A DNA stretch of 64,000 nt from Escherichia coli (GTDB lineage: Bacteria > Pseudomonadota > Gammaproteobacteria > Enterobacterales > Enterobacteriaceae), in NCBI RefSeq assembly GCF_024223415.1, contig NZ_CP100503.1. One strand, written 5' to 3'. Below the pieces are notes generated by a model. The model was not told where the DNA came from, searched no databases, and saw only the letters and a program-made list of their open reading frames with translations. Position numbers and translations under genes: made by a program. Positions 58,364 to 64,000 of the stretch are shown here, piece after piece. The stretch's first letter is position 1. Every line of letters starts with the position of its first letter.

Positions 58364-58380
58364 ATTGCTCTAATAAATAT
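58364..58380 (+). promoter_or_regulatory. C1 operator upstream of the uhr-hrdC-dmt operon
   Basis: attgctctaataaatat, 16/17. Confidence 0.75.
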
Positions 58381-58451
58381 TGTTTTTTATGTCGTGTTTT
58401 CGGTACCATTCAGCCATCGCCCTTCAATGGGCATTTGTTTGGAGTCGTCAG

Positions 58452-58736
58452 ATGCAGATGGAGCTAATAAGCCGCAAGGAGTTCGATAGCCGTGTAACCA
58501 GCGGTGAACTCGACAACTTGCAGGCTATCAAGGTGAAAGAAGGCTTTTGCCTCATTGGGAATCAGAGCGGAACAAATCGCGTTTTTATGCTTCGCCGTAC
58601 GGATTTGAAGCCATTTGTCTGGAAGAACGAAATTGGTCCCAGCTCATACGCTCAAACGAGGGGGTGCCACAACCTGGCCTTTTTCTACAAAGACGAGCTT
58701 TCTGTGGTTGATATTCAAGGGTTACAACATGTTTAA
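58452..58736 (+). CDS. Hypothetical 94-aa protein (P1 uhr position)
   Basis: ATG 58452 with SD ggag. It overlaps the hrdC start. Confidence 0.5.
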
Positions 58737-59634
58737 GCACTGGAAAAACATTACTATTTATAAACTTTCTCGTGAGGCGGATCTGACCGACTTAGAAGAT
58801 AAAAAGAAAATGATCCTTTTCACGCCATGCGGTAGTCAGGATATGGCCAAGTTCGGTTTTGTATCTCCATTTGGTGATAATTCCGAAGTTATCGCTATGC
58901 ATGGAAATGGTTTTATCCTTGTTGAAGCAAAGCGCGAAACAAAAATTCTTCCCCCGCCGGTTATCCAGCGAGCTATTCAAGAAAAAATTGAAAAACTTGA
59001 GCAAGAACAAGCGCGTAAACTGAAGAAAACAGAGAAGGACTCCCTGAAAGACGAAGTTCTGCATTCTCTTCTGCCACGGGCTTTTTCAAAGTTTTCTGTT
59101 ATCCAGGCGATCTACGACGGTTCAACTAAACGTATCTATATCAATGCCAGCACGCGGCAGGCAGAGGATATGCTCGCGCTTATGCGTAAGTCTCTGGGTT
59201 CTCTTCCTGTTGTTCCCCTGAGTGTTGAAAATCCCATTGAATTAACGCTGACCGACTGGGTACGTGATGGTAGTGCTCCACAGGGATTTCAAATGGGGGA
59301 TGCGGCAGAACTTAAGGCAGTGCTTGAGGATGGCGGTATTGCCCGAGTGAAAAAGCAGGATTTGGGAAGCGATGAAATTTCCACACACCTGGAAGCTGGC
59401 AAGCTCGTCACTAAGTTGGCACTCGACTGGCAGAACCGCATTAAATTTACACTGGACCATAACTTCAGCCTTACCAGCGTCAAATTTGCGGATGAATTGC
59501 TTGAGCAGAACTCTGATATTGATAGTGAAGATGTAGCGCAGCGACTGGACGCAGATTTCTTCCTGTTGACCAGTGAAATTTCGTGCCTGGTTGATGCTCT
59601 GGTAAATGCCCTTGGTGGAGAGGCTAAGCAGTGA
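58729..59634 (+). CDS. hrdC: RdgC-family recombination-associated protein (P1 HrdC), 301 aa
   Basis: Collinear similarity to E. coli RdgC from memory ([14 protein letters not shown]...[42 protein letters not shown]...[25 protein letters not shown]). Confidence 0.9.
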
Positions 59635-62291
59635 AAGAGCTGTGCTATGGATCTGTTTGCAGTGGAATTGAAGCCGCGAGTATTGCCTGGGAACCGTTGG
59701 GTATGCGTCCGGCGTGGTTTGCTGAAATCGAGCCTTTTCCATCAGCCGTTCTTGCGCACCGCTGGCCCCATGTCGCCAACCTTGGCGACATGACAAAACT
59801 TGCCAAAAAAGTCCTGGCTGGGGAAATCGAATCCCCTGATGTGCTGGTGGGAGGGACACCATGTTTTACCGCGGGCCATATGGTTCTTTGTAAAAATGGT
59901 TATAAACCAATAGAAGATGTTTGCCCTGGCGATTACGTAGTCAGTCATCTCGGGCGGTTACAACAAGTAAAAAAAGTTGGTTCAAAAATAGCTAATACGG
60001 GGTTACTTAATGCCGTTGGGCAGCCTTTAGGTATAAGAACAACCAACGACCATCCCTTCCTGGCGGTTCGGTGGAAAGCCCAAAACACCCGGAAAAATGG
60101 CACATATTTTAAGAGAGAGTTGTTGTCTGAACCGGAATGGCGAGCAGCATGTGATATGCCGGGATATCAATGGTGTGCTCTAACTAATTTCAATATTGCA
60201 TCTCCAGATATTTGTTCTCGGTTCTTGTCTGAAGAACAGGCTATGTATCTTGCGGGCGCTTATGTTGGCGATGGATATATTAGGAGATGGAGAGGTAAAT
60301 CTAAGAAGGCGGTTGTTTTTGGCATAAATTGCCAGAAATTGAGAAAGTTTCATTGCCGCATATCAGAAAACATATTTTCCGTGGCAAGCGAAATCCGAGG
60401 GAGCATCAAAGTAACCTTGAATGATACGTGTTATGCCAATTGGCTTAATGAACATTTTGGCGAGTTAAGCCATGCTAAGCGTATCCCTGCATGGGTGATG
60501 TCGCATCCATTGCGTCATGTGTTTTTACAAGGCTATCTTGATACTGATGGGACACCAAGTGGTAAAGCGGGATTTAGAATTAATAGTGTTAGTCCTGCGC
60601 TTGCTTGGGGCGTTGCGGAGTTGTCACAGACTTGTGGTTATGTTTCTTCGGTCAGCTTTATTGAAGTTGAGCCCAAAAAAGTGATTGAGGATCGCGTGGT
60701 AAATCAACGGAATTATTATCAGGTAACAATCTGCCCGCAGAAATTGTCACGTAAATCAAGATTGGCTCATGGAATGCTTTTACGAACAGTCAAAGAGTTT
60801 AAATCGGTAGGCCTAGATACTGTATACAACATAGAAGTCGAAGGTGATCATTCCTATATCCTCAATGGTGCGGTGGTCCATAACTGTCAGGCATTCAGTA
60901 TCGCTGGATTACGTGGCGGGCTTGATGATGAGCGTGGCGCGCTAACTTTAAAGTATGTGGAGCTTGCAAATGCAATTGACGACAAACGGGCTGAGTCATT
61001 TCTCAAACCAGCCGTTATCGTCTGGGAAAATGTCCCAGGAGTCTTGTCATCGGCAGATAACGCCTTCGGATGTTTCCTTGCCGGATTGGCTGGAGAAGAT
61101 GTGCCATTTGAACCAGGTGATCGACCTGAATCAGGAAAAAGCAACGCGTTCTGGCGGTGGGATGGCAAAACCGGTTGCCATGTTCCAAAGTGGCCGCAGT
61201 GTGGTTGTATTTATGGACCGCAGCGAAAGGTGGCCTGGAGAATCCTTGATGCCCAATACTTCGGAGTGGCACAACGACGCCGACGCGTGTTTGTTGTCGC
61301 AAGTGCTCGAACAGACCTCGATCCCGCAACGGTACTTTTTGAGTTCGAAGGCGTGCGCCGGAATATTGCGCCGAGCCGAAAAAAGAAGGAAATCGCTTCC
61401 GCCATTACTGCAAATGGCGCTGCAATCAGTGGCGAAAGCCTAAATCCATGCCTACACGCTGGCATGTCCCCCGGTATGAAATCGACGAAAGCCGTAAACG
61501 CTTTCAGGATGGCAGCATTTGGGGAATATATTGACGATGAAACCGCATCGACAGTAAAGGCAAGAGATTTTAAAGATGCCACTGACCTTGCCGTTTTTAG
61601 CAGCACAGGAGCAGGTTTTTGGTCAGAAGGGCATGGTACATTGCGGGCACGTGAGCAAGAAAGCCATGAGCATCTTGTTACATTGGCTTTTCCTGAGCGT
61701 ATGAGCGGTACACAACATGCTGCAACTAAGAATACTTCACCATCTCTAATGGCTAAAAATCCAACAGCTGTTTGCTATGAAGTAAGAAACGCAGAAGTAG
61801 CTGTCCGCCGTCTTACCCCTGTCGAATGTGAAAGGCTGCAAGGTTTTCCTGATGGGCATACGTTGATCCCGACGGAAAAGCGTAAAAAAGTTAATTCAGA
61901 TGAACTGGCATATCTTCGCAATCACTATCCAGATTTAAGCGAAGAAGAGGCCGCGATGCTTGCAGCTGACGGACCGCGTTACAAAGCGATCGGCAATAGT
62001 ATGGCAATACCAGTAATGCGCTGGATTGGCGATCGGATTACTAAGGCCGTATGTCGGCAGAAAGAAGGAAGTGAAACAAAAGAGCGAAAAGTTAAACCAG
62101 CGGCAGAATTCGAACGGTCCATATTCAAATGGGCTGGTGGAAAATTTGGTGTTCTGGAACAAATCTTTCGCTATTTGCCAGAAGGGAAGCGCCTGATTGA
62201 ACCTTTTGTCGGTGGCGGAGCTGTCTTCACGAATGCCGGATACCAGGAAAATCTGCTAAATGATGTGAATGCTGACCTGATTAACTTTTAC
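59631..62291 (+). CDS. dmt: Dmt bifunctional DNA methyltransferase: C5-cytosine MTase domain (interrupted by an intein) + Dam-like N6A domain truncated by IS copy 2
   Basis: C5 motifs seen are I (VCSGIEAAS), IV (GGTP[intein]CQAFS), VI (ENVPG), VIII (QRRRRVF) and X (GNSMAIPV). A Dam-like domain follows ([14 protein letters not shown]...[10 protein letters not shown]...[11 protein letters not shown]) and stops at TTAC/IS. The ORF continues 13 codons into the IS (stop at 62333). Confidence 0.88.
59862..60884 (+). mobile_element. Intein (341 aa) with LAGLIDADG homing-endonuclease domain
   Basis: Cys1 ([13 protein letters not shown]), block B (TTNDHPF), LAGLIDADG x2 ([12 protein letters not shown]; [11 protein letters not shown]), block F ([14 protein letters not shown]) and block G (NGAVVHN|C) are all present. 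Length is 1023 nt, in frame. Excision restores GGTPCQAFS. Confidence 0.88.
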
Positions 62292-62348
62292 CCAGTGCGC
62301 CGTAAAGCCCCGTCCTTCAGGTCGGGGATATAAGGCGCGGTTTTCCAC

Positions 62349-62765
62349 CTAACCAGGTGTTTGCTGTTGTTCAATGTATTGGCGGATGATGGATATTGGT
62401 GCGCCACCGCAGCTACTGGCAAAATAGCTGGGACTCCATAAAACGCCTTTGTAGTAATATCGGGCTGCAATATCTGGTCGATCTCGTCGCAATAATCTAC
62501 TCGATACGCCCTTGAGACTGTTCACCAGGCTGGATATCGCCAATTTGGGGGGATAGTTAATTAGCAGGTGAACGTGATCTCGTTCTCCATCCATTTCAAC
62601 CAGTTCAGCTTCAAAATCAGCACATACACTTGAAAAGTAAGTGCGTAGTTTTTCTATTGCGTCATGGTCAAAAATCTGACGTCGGTATTTTGCGACAAAG
62701 ACCAGGTGAACGTGCATCAGGAAGACGCAGTGTCTTCCACGTCGGATATCAGTTTCTTTTTTCAT
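62349..62765 (-). CDS. tnpA: TnpA Y1 transposase, copy 2 (intact ATG), 138 aa
   Basis: MKKETDIRRGRHCVFLMHVHLVFVAKYRR... has the HUH motif and the C-terminal Tyr region. Confidence 0.88.
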   Translation of the reverse strand: MKKETDIRRGRHCVFLMHVHLVFVAKYRRQIFDHDAIEKLRTYFSSVCADFEAELVEMDGERDHVHLLINYPPKLAISSLVNSLKGVSSRLLRRDRPDIAARYYYKGVLWSPSYFASSCGGAPISIIRQYIEQQQTPG

Positions 62766-62787
62766 GGACCAAAGTATAATTTGGCTT

Positions 62788-63996
62788 ATGAAACGACTAC
62801 AAGCTTTCAAATTCCAGTTAAGACCAAATGGACAGCAGGAGCGTGAAATGAGGCGCTTCGCGGGCGCATGTCGTTTCGTTTTCAATCGTGCTCTGGCGCT
62901 TCAGAATGAGAATCATGAGGCCGGGAACAAATATATTTCTTATGCAAAGATGACTTCCTGGCTGGTTGAATGGAAAAATGCTACTGAAACGCAATGGCTT
63001 AAAGATTCTCCCTCACAGCCATTGCAGCAGTCACTGAAAGACCTTGAGCGAGCCTACAAAAATTTCTTTCAGAAGCGTGCCTCTTTTCCCCGCTTCAAAA
63101 AGCGGGGACAGAATGATGCATTCCGCTATCCGCAGGGCGTTAAGCTCGACCAAGGGAACGGTCGTATTTTTCTGCCAAAACTTGGCTGGATGCACTACCG
63201 GAACAGCCGTCAGGTCTCGGGGATTGTGAAAAACGTCACTGTCAGCCAGTCCTGCGGTAAGTGGTACATCAGTATTCAGACAGAAAGTGAAGTATCAACT
63301 CCGGTTCACCCTTCAGCATCAATAGTCGGTCTGGATGCAGGCGTGGCTAAACTCGCCATGCTGTCAGATGGCACAGTCTTTGAGCCTGTAAACAGTTTTC
63401 AGAAAAACCAGAAGACGCTGGCGAGACTTCAGCGTCAGTTAAGCCGCAAGGTCAAATTCAGCAATAACTGGCAGAAGCAGAAACGCAAAATACAGCGACT
63501 GCATTCCCGTATCGCAAATATCCGCAGGGACTACCTTCACAAAGTCACAACGACCGTCAGCAAAAACCACGCAATGATAGTCATTGAGGATTTGAAGGTC
63601 AGCAACATGTCAAAGTCAGCAGCGGGTACGGTCAGCCAGCCGGGGCGCAATGTCCGGGCAAAATCAGGTTTAAACCGTTCGATACTGGATCAGGGCTGGT
63701 ATGAAATGCGCCGTCAGCTTGAGTACAAGCAGCTCTGGCGAGGCGGTCAGGTGCTTGCGGTTCCGCCAGCGTACACAAGCCAGCGTTGTGCGTGCTGTGG
63801 TCATACAGCGAAAGAAAACCGCCTGTCACAAAGTCAATTCAGATGCCAGGTATGTGGATATACAGCGAACGCCGATGTAAACGGCGCTCGTAACATTTTA
63901 GCGGCGGGGCACGCCGTTCTTGCCTGTGGAGGGATGGTGCAGTCAGGCCGCCCGTTGAAGCAGGAACCCACCGAAATGATTCAGGCGACAGCCTGA
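62788..63996 (+). CDS. tnpB: TnpB, copy 2
   Basis: Same as copy 1 except for e.g. T->M (KLAMLSDG) and C->R (QKRKIQRL). Confidence 0.9.
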
Positions 63997-64000
63997 ACGT

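What the first reader, a model, noticed from the sequence alone, without database searches (positions are those of the whole stretch)
59862..60884. LAGLIDADG intein splitting the catalytic PCQ motif of the Dmt C5-cytosine methyltransferase in a P1-family phage
The dmt ORF reads ...[11 protein letters not shown]|[20 protein letters not shown]...(341 aa)...[16 protein letters not shown]|[18 protein letters not shown]. Deleting 59862..60884 (1023 nt, in frame) recreates the universal C5-MTase motif IV GGTPCQAFS. Motifs VI ENVPG, VIII QRRRRVF and X GNSMAIPV follow in the normal order. The inserted block has every class-1 intein hallmark. These are Cys1, block B T-x-x-H (TTNDHPF), two LAGLIDADG motifs about 90 aa apart ([23 protein letters not shown]), block [15 protein letters not shown], and a terminal His-Asn followed by a +1 Cys. 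The +1 nucleophile would be the methyltransferase's own catalytic cysteine, so methylation activity would depend strictly on splicing. By eye the segment is AT-richer than the flanking dmt sequence. To my knowledge inteins are essentially absent from E. coli-group chromosomes and have not been described in P1 or its Dmt. An intein in a phage anti-restriction methyltransferase would be a new host-protein class and could act as a conditional switch.
Basis: partly seen in the sequence, partly recalled or inferred. Interest (0 to 1): 0.92.

Follow-up and report, generated by a model that had tools for sequence, protein, structure and literature searches.

The report
Homing intein in phage P1-family Dmt
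The 1,023-base insert is a self-splicing protein element (an intein with its own homing endonuclease) sitting directly in front of the catalytic cysteine of the cytosine-methyltransferase half of the P1-family Dmt protein; it is genuine but an ordinary member of a large intein family, and about three in ten P1-like dmt genes in complete E. coli genomes carry it, with no annotation as an intein.

Summary

- **Structure of the insert.** The in-frame 341-codon insert at 59862..60884 is exactly absent from reference P1 Dmt. It has Cys1, TxxH, two LAGLIDADG motifs, a block-F Asp, terminal His-Asn and a +1 Cys.
- **Fold.** The model is confident (pLDDT 92.7), and its best structural matches are PI-SceI and the archaeal VMA, PI-PfuI and PI-PkoII inteins.
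- **Effect of removal.** Removing the insert in silico restores one continuous C5-methyltransferase match.
- **Rarity claim fails.** The intein is in 151 of 5,426 complete E. coli genomes, in 132 PLSDB plasmids (Escherichia, Salmonella, Shigella), and in phages RCS47, Ro157c2YLVW and a laboratory P1.
- **Host-class claim fails.** It belongs to a family of at least about 200 50%-identity clusters. Nearly all sit at the same P|C…N|CQxxS site of phage and bacterial C5-methyltransferases. Inteins in phage DNA methylases, including C-5 methylases, are already published.
- **Mobility.** The intein is about 4.5-fold less diverse than its flanks and occurs in different dmt backgrounds, which fits recent homing.
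- **Untested.** Splicing, endonuclease activity and any switch role.

In this window dmt is also truncated by an IS200/IS605 insertion. Verdict: new member of a known kind; moderate interest.

The parts
58364..58409 (+). C1 operator Odmt (58364..58380) and sigma-70 promoter Pdmt (58380..58409) of the uhr-hrdC(rdgC)-dmt operon
   Evidence: The operator and the -35 and -10 hexamers are identical to those annotated in P1 NC_005856. That they drive dmt expression here is inferred from the P1 annotation.
58729..59634 (+). hrdC/rdgC gene immediately upstream; its stop overlaps the dmt GTG start by 4 nt
   Evidence: Coordinates were transferred from the P1, RCS47 and plasmid annotations. The ORF is present.
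59631..62333 (+). dmt precursor ORF as it stands in this window (900 codons plus stop). Genuine dmt sequence ends at 62291; the last 13 codons and the stop come from the inserted IS.
59631..59861 (+). N-extein (77 aa): C5-methyltransferase motif I (SVCSGIE, 59652..59672) through GGTP of motif IV. The last codon is CCA (Pro).
   Evidence: The Pfam DNA_methylase match becomes continuous over residues 8-135 once the intein is removed.
59862..60884 (+). Intein, 341 aa, class 1, with an embedded LAGLIDADG homing endonuclease domain
   Evidence: Pfam LAGLIDADG_3 5e-9, Hint_2 2.4e-6 (at threshold) and Intein_splicing 1.3e-4 (below threshold); TIGR01443 intein C-terminal region 8e-6, above its cut-off. 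AlphaFold2 pLDDT 92.7 and pTM 0.89. Foldseek best match PI-SceI at 2.5e-17. The insert is exactly absent from intein-less alleles.
59862..59879 (+). Block A, CFTAGH; Cys1 is the first splicing nucleophile
   Evidence: Cys1 is conserved in 35 of 35 P1-family alleles and in 135 of 136 family representatives.
60042..60053 (+). Block B, T61-N-D-H64 (TxxH)
   Evidence: T61 and H64 are conserved in 35 of 35 alleles and throughout alignment A2 wherever the N-terminal part is present.
60246..60281 (+). LAGLIDADG motif 1 ([12 protein letters not shown]) with acidic residue D137
   Evidence: D137 is conserved in at least 90% of the family and in 35 of 35 alleles.
60522..60554 (+). LAGLIDADG motif 2 ([11 protein letters not shown]) with acidic residue D229
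   Evidence: D229 is conserved in at least 90% of the family and in 35 of 35 alleles. The Pfam LAGLIDADG_3 match covers intein residues 221-284.
60822..60884 (+). Blocks F and G: [21 protein letters not shown], with D329, H340 and terminal N341
   Evidence: TIGR01443 match. The region aligns with the C-terminus of the Spl DnaX mini-intein. N341 is invariant in the family.
60885..60899 (+). +1 Cys (60885..60887) and the rest of motif IV (CQAFS). It is the catalytic cysteine of the C5-methyltransferase and the second splicing nucleophile.
   Evidence: 116 of 136 representatives have +1,+2 = CQ.
60885..62111 (+). C-extein, C5-methyltransferase part: motif VI ENVPG (61026..61040), motif VIII QRRRRVF (61272..61292), the long P1-type variable (target-recognition) region, and motif X GNSMAIPV (61992..62015)
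62112..62291 (+). First ~60 residues of the Dam (D12-class N6-adenine methyltransferase) domain, cut off by the IS
   Evidence: Pfam MethyltransfD12 matches profile positions 1-59 of 253 only. Identity to RCS47 dmt ends at 62291, directly after TTAC.
62292..64000 (.). IS200/IS605-family insertion (tnpA 62349..62885 on the - strand; tnpB/InsQ 62764..63996 on the + strand) that truncates dmt. It is not part of the intein but decides what this copy can encode.
   Evidence: Pfam Y1_Tnp 7e-42; OrfB_IS605 plus the Cas12f1-like TNB domain. Relatives are annotated as IS200/IS605 tnpA and InsQ/TnpB.

Best explanation
The insert is a canonical class-1 intein carrying a LAGLIDADG homing endonuclease. It is inserted between Pro77 and the catalytic Cys of motif IV (GGTP|CQAFS) of the C5-cytosine methyltransferase half of the bifunctional P1-family Dmt protein.

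**Expression (inferred from the P1 annotation).** dmt is the last gene of the uhr-hrdC-dmt operon, behind the C1-repressed promoter Pdmt. The precursor would therefore be made on infection or induction.

**Splicing (inferred from conserved residues and fold).**
1. Cys1 undergoes an N-to-S acyl shift.
2. The thioester is passed to the +1 Cys.
3. Asn341 cyclises and releases the intein.
4. An S-to-N shift joins the exteins and recreates GGTPCQAFS.

The cysteine that ends up as the methyltransferase nucleophile is the one used for trans-thioesterification. Cytosine-methyltransferase activity would therefore need splicing.

**Homing (inferred).** The released 341-aa protein, through D137 and D229 of its two LAGLIDADG motifs, would cut intein-less dmt alleles at the motif IV coding sequence. 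Repair from an intein-plus copy would then spread the element among P1-like phage-plasmids, carrying the adjacent CCA codon along.

**Shown here.** The anatomy, the fold, the exact presence/absence polymorphism, purifying selection, the low diversity of the intein relative to its flanks, and its occurrence in different dmt backgrounds and genera.

**Not shown.** Splicing, cleavage and homing themselves.

**This copy.** An IS200/IS605 element truncates the Dam domain at 62291. At most it can yield a spliced C5-methyltransferase without Dam activity.
For: **Anatomy and family membership.**
- Junctions and motifs were read directly from the sequence.
- Pfam LAGLIDADG_3 scores 36.7 bits against a cut-off of 22.5. 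Hint_2 scores 28.4 against 28.4. TIGR01443 scores 25.9-29.1 against 15.6.
- The AlphaFold2 model has pLDDT 92.7 and pTM 0.89.
- The top 16 Foldseek PDB matches are all intein-endonucleases: PI-SceI (2.5e-17), the TliVMA and PhoVMA inteins, PI-PfuI and PI-PkoII. I-DmoI and I-SceI follow for the endonuclease domain.

**Clean insertion.**
- P1 reference Dmt, P7, SJ46 and four plasmid alleles read GGTP|CQAFS (WGTP|CQAFS in the P1 reference) with nothing in between.
- 337 complete E. coli genomes carry an uninterrupted allele and 151 carry the intein.

**In-silico splicing.**
- Pfam DNA_methylase rises from 107.1 to 128.1 bits, with one stretch running across the junction.
- TIGR00675 rises from 99.9 (below its 100.65 cut-off) to 119.9.

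**Constraint.**
- All 35 P1-family alleles are open.
- All 35 keep C1, T61, H64, D137, D229, D329, H340 and N341.
- Intein pN/pS is 0.30.
- Relatives at about 30% identity keep the same residues.

**Mobility.**
- Synonymous diversity is 0.013 in the intein, 0.060 in 711 nt of flanking extein of the same 33 alleles, and 0.118 in the N-extein alone.
- The commonest single intein haplotype occurs with both the long (P1-type) and the short (P7-type) variable region.
- The intein is 98.6-99.5% identical across E. coli, E. albertii, E. fergusonii, Salmonella and Shigella.
- All 35 intein-plus alleles have CCA at codon -1, and all six intein-less alleles examined have CCT.
- No intein-less allele in the E. 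coli collection matches the spliced junction better than 70 of 72 nt.

**Site-specific family.** 116 of 136 top cluster representatives, and most of the distinct IMG/VR relatives examined, sit at P|C...N|CQxxS.

**Operon control.** The operator and promoter are identical to those annotated in P1.
Against: - No experiment exists. Splicing, endonuclease activity and homing are all inferred.
- Pfam Intein_splicing is below its cut-off (22.2 against 35.8 bits), and Hint_2 only just reaches its own.
- The P1-lineage intein has Asp (or Glu) at position 277, where the wider family has a nearly invariant Gly (IEGR becomes IEDR). This could weaken or retarget the endonuclease.
- P1-like plasmids recombine freely. 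General homologous recombination could therefore produce part of the mosaic pattern without endonuclease-driven homing.
- Selection for splicing may be weaker than in classical intein hosts. The documented essential function of Dmt is its C-terminal Dam activity (PMC12707154), which might survive in an unspliced precursor. C5 activity of P1 Dmt is only 'perhaps' in the P1 record.
- Every intein-less allele examined differs at codon -1 (CCT). I cannot tell whether present-day empty sites are still cleavable.
Confidence: 0.8

Rival explanations
1. The intein is splicing-competent but its homing endonuclease is no longer active, or no cleavable targets remain. The element would then persist by vertical descent with the plasmid and move only through ordinary homologous recombination among P1-like elements.
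For: - Lineage-specific G277D change at a Gly that is nearly invariant in the family.
- All sampled empty sites carry CCT rather than CCA at codon -1, and no exact empty version of the intein-plus junction exists in 5,426 genomes.
- P1-like dmt genes are visibly mosaic.
Against: - Both LAGLIDADG acidic residues and the invariant Lys206 are intact in all 35 alleles, with no stop or frameshift in the endonuclease domain.
- pN/pS of 0.30 over the whole intein argues against free decay.
- The intein is about 4.5-fold less diverse at synonymous sites than its own flanks. This is what a recent invasion predicts, and it is not expected from long vertical residence.
Confidence: 0.15
2. The insert no longer splices in this lineage. 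It acts as a tolerated disruption of a dispensable C5-methyltransferase domain, while the C-terminal Dam domain of the same polypeptide provides the selected function.
For: - The documented requirement for Dmt is Dam methylation for packaging (PMC12707154).
- C5 methylation is only 'perhaps' in the P1 annotation.
- The P1 reference itself carries Trp in place of a conserved Gly in GGTPCQ.
- dmt is often damaged in nature: by an IS here, by IS100 in pZ1323CEC0006-2, and by a frameshift in strain 06-00048.
Against: - Every splicing residue is conserved in 35 of 35 alleles and across relatives down to 30% identity.
- The C5 motifs IV, VI, VIII and X are intact, and extein pN/pS is 0.24-0.33.
- A non-splicing insert would be expected to accumulate changes at C1, N341 or in block B.
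Confidence: 0.04
3. The insert is not an intein. It would be an ordinary inserted domain, a bacterial intein-like (BIL) domain, or a free-standing endonuclease gene fused by chance.
For: PGAP once annotated the segment as a separate pseudogene, 'LAGLIDADG family homing endonuclease', in a frameshifted allele. Pfam Intein_splicing is below its threshold.
Against: - The insert is in frame with no start or stop codon of its own.
- The Hint fold wraps around the endonuclease domain as in PI-SceI.
- The terminal Asn and +1 Cys are invariant.
- The insertion is exact to the codon in a universally conserved motif, and empty alleles exist.
- By my knowledge of the family (not tested here), BIL domains lack endonuclease domains and sit in variable regions.
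Confidence: 0.01

Closest known systems
PI-SceI (the yeast VMA1 intein) and the archaeal TliVMA, PhoVMA, PI-PfuI and PI-PkoII inteins
   Same: The architecture is the same: a class-1 Hint splicing domain split by a two-motif LAGLIDADG endonuclease domain, with Cys1, a terminal Asn and a +1 Cys. These are the best structural matches (Foldseek E from 2.5e-17 to 7.6e-9). PI-PkoII also matches weakly by sequence.
   Different: Sequence identity is only 11-18%. The P1 intein is smaller (341 aa against 360-540). The host proteins are unrelated (V-ATPase and DNA polymerase). There are no biochemical data for the P1 element.
Inteins in actinobacteriophage DNA methylases: N6/N4 DNMT-1/2 in Kelley et al. 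2016 (PMC5050341); the methylase family in PMC9957025; C-5 methylase (IPR001525) listed in bioRxiv 10.1101/2025.01.02.630785
   Same: They are phage-borne, sit in a DNA methyltransferase, have a patchy presence/absence distribution, and show evidence of horizontal transfer between diverged host alleles.
   Different: Those hosts are phages of Actinobacteria. The published text I could read gives no insertion site for the C-5 case, so I could not test whether it is the same site. My searches did find actinobacterial C5-methyltransferase inteins at about 30% identity in the same motif IV position (P0018, P0021).
The unnamed intein family at motif IV of C5-methyltransferases seen in metagenomes, IMG/VR phages and Pasteurellaceae (for example Mannheimia haemolytica P0011 and Rodentibacter P0024)
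   Same: The insertion point is the same (P|C...HN|CQxFS), as are the block A CFTAGH, the length of about 340 aa and the domain order. Identity to the P1 intein is 44-57% for the nearest clusters.
   Different: The host methyltransferases and replicons differ. Some members sit in decayed genes (Mannheimia) or have Ser at +1. None is characterised experimentally as far as I could find.
Inteins whose splicing is conditional, such as the Pyrococcus horikoshii RadA intein (PMC4513877) and the ssDNA/DNA-damage-stimulated recombinase intein (PMC5238726)
   Same: The intein sits in the active site of a nucleic-acid enzyme, so splicing gates activity. Both junction nucleophiles are cysteines.
   Different: There is no evidence of conditional splicing for the Dmt intein. 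This resemblance is a lead, not a result.

Membership tests
Class-1 intein (Hint splicing domain) | N-terminal Cys or Ser nucleophile (block A) | tested here: met
   Cys1 in CFTAGH. Present in 35 of 35 alleles and 135 of 136 family representatives.
Class-1 intein (Hint splicing domain) | Block B TxxH | tested here: met
   T61-N-D-H64, conserved in 35 of 35 alleles and across alignment A2.
Class-1 intein (Hint splicing domain) | Blocks F and G with a block-F Asp, penultimate His and terminal Asn | tested here: met
   VYNIEVEGD329HSYIL...VVH340N341. TIGR01443 is above its cut-off. N341 is invariant in the family.
Class-1 intein (Hint splicing domain) | +1 Cys, Ser or Thr on the C-extein | tested here: met
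   Cys419 of the ORF, invariant in alignment A2.
Class-1 intein (Hint splicing domain) | Hint fold | tested here: met
   AlphaFold2 pLDDT 92.7. Foldseek matches to PI-SceI, TliVMA and mini-inteins. Pfam Hint_2 scores exactly its gathering score, and Intein_splicing is below its own, so sequence-profile support is marginal and fold support is strong.
Class-1 intein (Hint splicing domain) | In-frame insertion in a conserved site of a host protein, with intein-less homologues | tested here: met
   Exact 341-aa gap in P1, P7, SJ46 and plasmid alleles. There are 337 intein-less against 151 intein-plus genomes. Profile scores improve after in-silico splicing.
Class-1 intein (Hint splicing domain) | Autocatalytic protein splicing that yields ligated exteins and free intein | not testable with these tools
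   Needs expression followed by western blot or mass spectrometry.
LAGLIDADG (DOD) homing endonuclease, single-chain two-motif type | Two LAGLIDADG motifs, each with a catalytic acidic residue | tested here: met
   YLAGAYVGD137GYI and FLQGYLDTD229GT. Both Asp residues are conserved in at least 90% of the family and in 35 of 35 alleles. Pfam LAGLIDADG_3 scores 36.7 against 22.5 bits.
LAGLIDADG (DOD) homing endonuclease, single-chain two-motif type | The alpha-beta-beta-alpha-beta-beta-alpha endonuclease fold | tested here: met
   Foldseek matches to I-DmoI and I-SceI at E from 3e-5 to 1e-4 over about 180 columns.
LAGLIDADG (DOD) homing endonuclease, single-chain two-motif type | Site-specific cleavage of the empty allele, and homing | not testable with these tools
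   Only indirect population evidence is available: patchy distribution, pS 0.013 against 0.060 in the flanks, the same intein haplotype in two dmt backgrounds, and a fixed CCA at codon -1. A G277D change at a conserved Gly is a caveat.
C5-cytosine DNA methyltransferase (the host protein) | Ordered motifs I, IV (PCQ), VI (ENV), VIII (QRR) and X (GNS), plus a profile match | tested here: met
   Motifs located. The spliced product scores 128.1 bits on Pfam DNA_methylase and 119.9 on TIGR00675 against a cut-off of 100.65.
C5-cytosine DNA methyltransferase (the host protein) | Demonstrated 5-methylcytosine formation | not testable with these tools
   The P1 record says 'perhaps at C5 cytosine'. I found no paper showing this activity.
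Bacterial intein-like (BIL) domain (considered and rejected) | A Hint domain without an endonuclease, in variable regions of non-conserved proteins, usually lacking a canonical +1 nucleophile (definition from my own knowledge of the family) | tested here: not met
   An endonuclease domain is present, the insertion is in a universally conserved catalytic motif, and the +1 Cys is invariant.

The most novel reading that the evidence does not exclude
The Dmt intein is an actively homing element now spreading through P1-family phage-plasmids of Escherichia, Salmonella and Shigella, and its splicing is conditional. One possibility is a Cys1/Cys+1 redox trap; another is sensing of DNA substrate. Either would let the phage time or gate cytosine methylation after induction. 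If so, this would be a native E. coli/P1 system for studying both intein homing and post-translational control of a phage methyltransferase. It would also stand for a large family, uncharacterised as far as I could find, that specifically targets the catalytic cysteine of C5-methyltransferases.
Probability: 0.1. Interest if true: 0.65.

Novelty: new member of a known kind. Interest (0 to 1): 0.4.

Why it matters
- **Annotation.** A real intein sits unannotated in a classic model phage family. About 31% of P1-like dmt genes in complete E. coli genomes carry it, and all of them are labelled simply 'Dam family methyltransferase'. Annotation of these genes should record the intein. Methylome or restriction-evasion predictions for these plasmids should take into account that C5 activity would depend on splicing.
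- **Experimental system.** It gives intein biology a tractable native system: P1 genetics in E. coli, with intein-plus (RCS47, P1 OP279344) and intein-less (reference P1, P7) partners already in hand.
- **Context.** It illustrates a broad rule that is already known: inteins target catalytic residues of nucleic-acid enzymes carried by phages.
- **Limit.** It does not define a new kind of element or a new host-protein class.

Tried and rejected
**Literature.** Full-text searches for intein together with P1-like or dmt, and for LAGLIDADG or homing endonuclease together with phage P1 or Punavirus, found no relevant paper. One search failed on a term that was too short. The Mannheimia genome paper mentions only BIL domains in FhaB, not the methyltransferase intein. 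The main text of Novikova 2016 does not mention methyltransferases, and I did not open its supplements.

**Sequence search of solved structures.** With the intein alone this gave only weak hits: Spl DnaX mini-intein at 1.4e-3 and PI-PkoII at 0.016. The fold comparison was needed.

**Empty site with CCA.** I looked for an intein-less allele carrying the intein-plus junction (CCA at codon -1). That would have indicated either precise intein loss or a naive target. None exists in 5,426 E. coli genomes, so the question of target sensitivity stays open.

**Other readings considered and rejected.**
- A group I or group II intron. The insert is in frame, has no stops, and has a protein-level Hint fold.
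- A BIL domain.
- A free-standing endonuclease ORF.

**Not done.** I could not measure the Cys1 to Cys+1 distance in the model, because coordinates are not exposed. I did not use the genome contigs or metagenome-contig scans, because the IMG/VR scan and the 1.84-billion-protein search already answered the distribution question.


Full report
**1. What is in the sequence**

- The + strand ORF 59631..62333 starts with GTG, overlaps the stop of the upstream rdgC/hrdC gene, and is the P1-family dmt gene.
- It reads ...VLVGGTP|[10 protein letters not shown]...(341 aa)...NGAVVHN|[12 protein letters not shown]....
- The 1,023-nt block 59862..60884 is in frame and free of stops.
- Both boundary codons are TGT, so the DNA-level boundary is ambiguous by 3 nt. 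By convention the first Cys belongs to the intein.
- The block is AT-richer than its surroundings: 42.7% GC against 55.0% for the N-extein, 49.1% for the C-extein and 47.7% for the window.

**2. It is an insertion, exact to the codon**

- Reference P1 Dmt is 754 aa. The RCS47 and vB_EcoM-Ro157c2YLVW proteins are 1,095 aa, a difference of exactly 341.
- In the alignment the P1 protein reads VLVWGTP-CQAFS, with a clean gap over the whole block.
- P7, SJ46 and four E. coli plasmid alleles are likewise uninterrupted.
- Removing the block in silico raises the Pfam DNA_methylase score from 107.1 to 128.1 bits, with one stretch crossing the junction.
- The same removal lifts TIGR00675 from just under its cut-off (99.9 against 100.65) to 119.9.

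**3. It is an intein with a homing endonuclease**

- *Profile evidence.*

| Profile | E-value | Status |
|---|---|---|
| LAGLIDADG_3 | 5e-9 | above cut-off |
| Hint_2 | 2.4e-6 | exactly at cut-off |
| Intein_splicing | 1.3e-4 | below cut-off |
| TIGR01443 (intein C-terminal region) | 8e-6 | above cut-off |

- *Structure.* A model built on an alignment of 15 relatives is confident (pLDDT 92.7, pTM 0.89).
- *Fold matches.* The 16 best PDB matches are all intein-endonucleases: PI-SceI (2.5e-17), the TliVMA and PhoVMA inteins, PI-PfuI and PI-PkoII. I-DmoI and I-SceI follow for the central domain.
- *Residues kept across relatives down to about 28% identity.*
  - Cys1
  - the Thr and His of block B
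  - both LAGLIDADG Asp residues (D137, D229)
  - Lys206
  - the block-F Asp (D329)
  - the terminal Asn and the +1 Cys
- *Variable residue.* The penultimate His varies (H, K, A or N).
- *Class.* The features fit a class-1 intein (class criteria from my own knowledge): an N-terminal Cys is present, as class 1 requires. I did not see the class-3 WCT motif, though I ran no specific search for it.

**4. Distribution**

The element is common, not rare.

- Intein DNA at 98.6-99.5% identity is in 132 PLSDB plasmids: Escherichia 117 (including E. albertii and E. fergusonii), Salmonella 14 and Shigella 1.
- It is in 151 of 5,426 complete E. coli genomes, at 147 plasmid and 5 chromosomal places.
- A spliced 531-nt probe finds dmt in 491 genomes, of which 337 are uninterrupted. 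About 31% of dmt alleles therefore carry the intein.
- It is in phage RCS47, in vB_EcoM-Ro157c2YLVW, and in a laboratory P1 stock (OP279344) used in Argonaute work.
- No source names the protein as intein-containing. It is uniformly called 'Dam family site-specific DNA-(adenine-N6)-methyltransferase'.
- PGAP once called the block a pseudogene, 'LAGLIDADG family homing endonuclease', in a frameshifted allele.

**5. Signs of mobility and constraint**

The sample is 35 intein-plus alleles: this window, 7 annotated records and 27 IMG/VR contigs.

- All 35 inteins are open, and all keep the eight key residues.
- Intein pN/pS is 0.30.
- Synonymous diversity is 0.013 in the intein. It is 0.060 in 711 nt of flanking extein from the same 33 alleles, and 0.118 in the N-extein alone.
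- The commonest intein haplotype occurs with both the long P1-type and the short P7-type variable region. Overall 20 alleles are short, 12 long and 3 other.
- Flanking haplotypes are mosaic.
- Every intein-plus allele has CCA as the Pro codon next to the intein. All six empty alleles examined have CCT.
- No empty allele in the E. coli collection matches the spliced junction better than 70 of 72 nt.

This pattern fits a recent invasion with tight co-conversion of the adjacent base. It does not prove endonuclease-driven homing, because P1-like plasmids recombine freely.

One caveat concerns the endonuclease. The P1 lineage has Asp (or Glu) at position 277, where the wider family has a nearly invariant Gly.

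**6. The wider family**

- A search of 1.84 billion cluster representatives found 4,593 relatives at E ≤ 1e-3 and 197 at E ≤ 1e-30.
- Of the 136 best with full-length matches, 135 start with Cys and all 136 end in Asn.
- Of those 136, 116 are followed by CQ and 121 are preceded by Pro. This is the PC|Q site of C5-methyltransferase motif IV.
- IMG/VR holds 348 confirmed relatives. Most of the distinct ones examined sit at the same site. A subgroup sits in SPD|C...|CKHFSKAKG proteins.
- The nearest non-P1 relatives, at 44-57% identity, are in metagenomic and Pasteurellaceae methyltransferases.

**7. What is known**

- Inteins in phage DNA methylases are published: N6/N4 methylases of mycobacteriophages (PMC5050341) and an actinophage methylase family with horizontal intein transfer (PMC9957025).
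- A 2025 survey lists both N-6/N-4 and C-5 methylases among hosts 'previously reported as containing inteins' (bioRxiv 10.1101/2025.01.02.630785).
- I found nothing on an intein in P1, P1-like elements or Dmt. The library lacks most subscription journals.
- The documented role of P1 Dmt is Dam methylation needed for pac-site packaging (PMC12707154). C5 methylation is annotated only as 'perhaps'. 'Anti-restriction methyltransferase' is therefore an assumption.

**8. Mechanism**

- *Shown.* The anatomy, fold, polymorphism, constraint and low diversity of the intein.
- *Inferred from the P1 annotation.* Expression comes from the C1-repressed Pdmt promoter. The operator and both promoter hexamers are identical to P1's in this window.
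- *Inferred from class-1 chemistry.* The acyl shift at Cys1, the transfer to the +1 Cys, the cyclisation of Asn341, and ligation that recreates GGTPCQAFS. The C5 active site would then exist only after splicing.
- *Inferred.* The free intein cuts empty dmt alleles and is copied in by repair.
- *A weakness specific to this host.* The Dam domain lies in the C-extein of the same polypeptide and may work unspliced. Selection for splicing may therefore be weaker than in classical intein hosts. The perfect conservation of splicing residues argues that splicing is still selected.

**9. This copy**

- Identity to intact dmt ends at 62291, directly after TTAC.
- There an IS200/IS605-family element begins, with a Y1 transposase and TnpB/InsQ.
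- The ORF keeps the whole C5 domain and the intein, but only about 60 residues of the Dam domain.

**10. Verdict**

The intein interpretation is strongly supported at the sequence and fold level, but is untested biochemically. The claims of a new host-protein class and of rarity are not supported. This is a new, unannotated and seemingly undescribed member of a known kind of element, and of a large site-specific family. Interest is moderate (0.4). Its main value is as a native E. coli/P1 system for intein homing, and as an annotation correction affecting hundreds of genomes.

Noticed in passing
window 62292..64000 (junction at 62291/62292): An IS200/IS605-family element (tnpA 62349..62885 on the - strand; tnpB/InsQ 62764..63996 on the + strand) is inserted directly 3' of TTAC inside the Dam domain of dmt and truncates the gene. 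The best-matching P1-like plasmids stop aligning with the window at this point, so they appear to lack the insertion. Relatives at 90-95% identity occur in about 5,000 of 5,426 E. coli genomes, and near-identical copies in only a few plasmids.
   Followed up: partly
L003 (P1 NC_005856), dmt codon 74; corresponds to window 59850..59852: Reference P1 Dmt has Trp (TGG) where every other allele examined has the conserved Gly of GGTPCQ (it reads VLVWGTPCQ). This change is next to the catalytic loop and might impair the C5 activity of the classical laboratory P1.
   Followed up: no
window 59859..59861, and the same codon in L001-L041 and L061: The Pro codon next to the intein is CCA in all 35 intein-plus alleles and CCT in all 6 intein-less alleles examined. 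No empty allele with CCA exists in the complete E. coli genomes. This may be a co-conversion marker, or a sign that the remaining empty sites differ from the original target.
   Followed up: partly
P0011 (Mannheimia haemolytica, seen on 578 contigs); L054 and L055: An intact-looking related intein (47% identity) is followed by a decayed C-extein (HN|CQSDKGGTVKASGGGFEWRE, protein ends at 439 aa). Here the intein has outlived its host methyltransferase gene.
   Followed up: no
P0088; L063 1734..2780: Some family members have Ser instead of Cys at +1 (HN|SQGFS). Splicing could persist in these, but the methyltransferase would lack its catalytic cysteine.
   Followed up: no
L072, L075, L076, L083, L084, L090-L092 (IMG/VR): A subgroup of related inteins (28-30% identity) sits at SPD|C...HN|CKHFSKAKG in a different host protein family. 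I did not identify that family.
   Followed up: no
L002 (OP279344), L005-L008 compared with the window, L001 and L004: dmt comes in at least two variable-region (target-recognition) types: long P1-type, 754 aa spliced, and short P7-type, 672 aa spliced. The laboratory 'P1' stock OP279344 carries the short type plus the intein, so its dmt differs from that of the reference P1 sequence.
   Followed up: partly
L012 (pZ1323CEC0006-2) and L009 (strain 06-00048 plasmid): Other natural dmt copies are also damaged: an IS100 insertion in an intein-less allele, and a 1-nt deletion just upstream of the intein in an intein-plus allele. This suggests dmt is often dispensable in the plasmid state.
   Followed up: no
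window 60684..60695 (intein residues 275-278): The P1-lineage intein reads IEDR where relatives read IEGR or IQGR, with the Gly conserved in at least 90% of the family. Among the 35 alleles, 34 have D and 1 has E. This might affect endonuclease activity or specificity.
   Followed up: no
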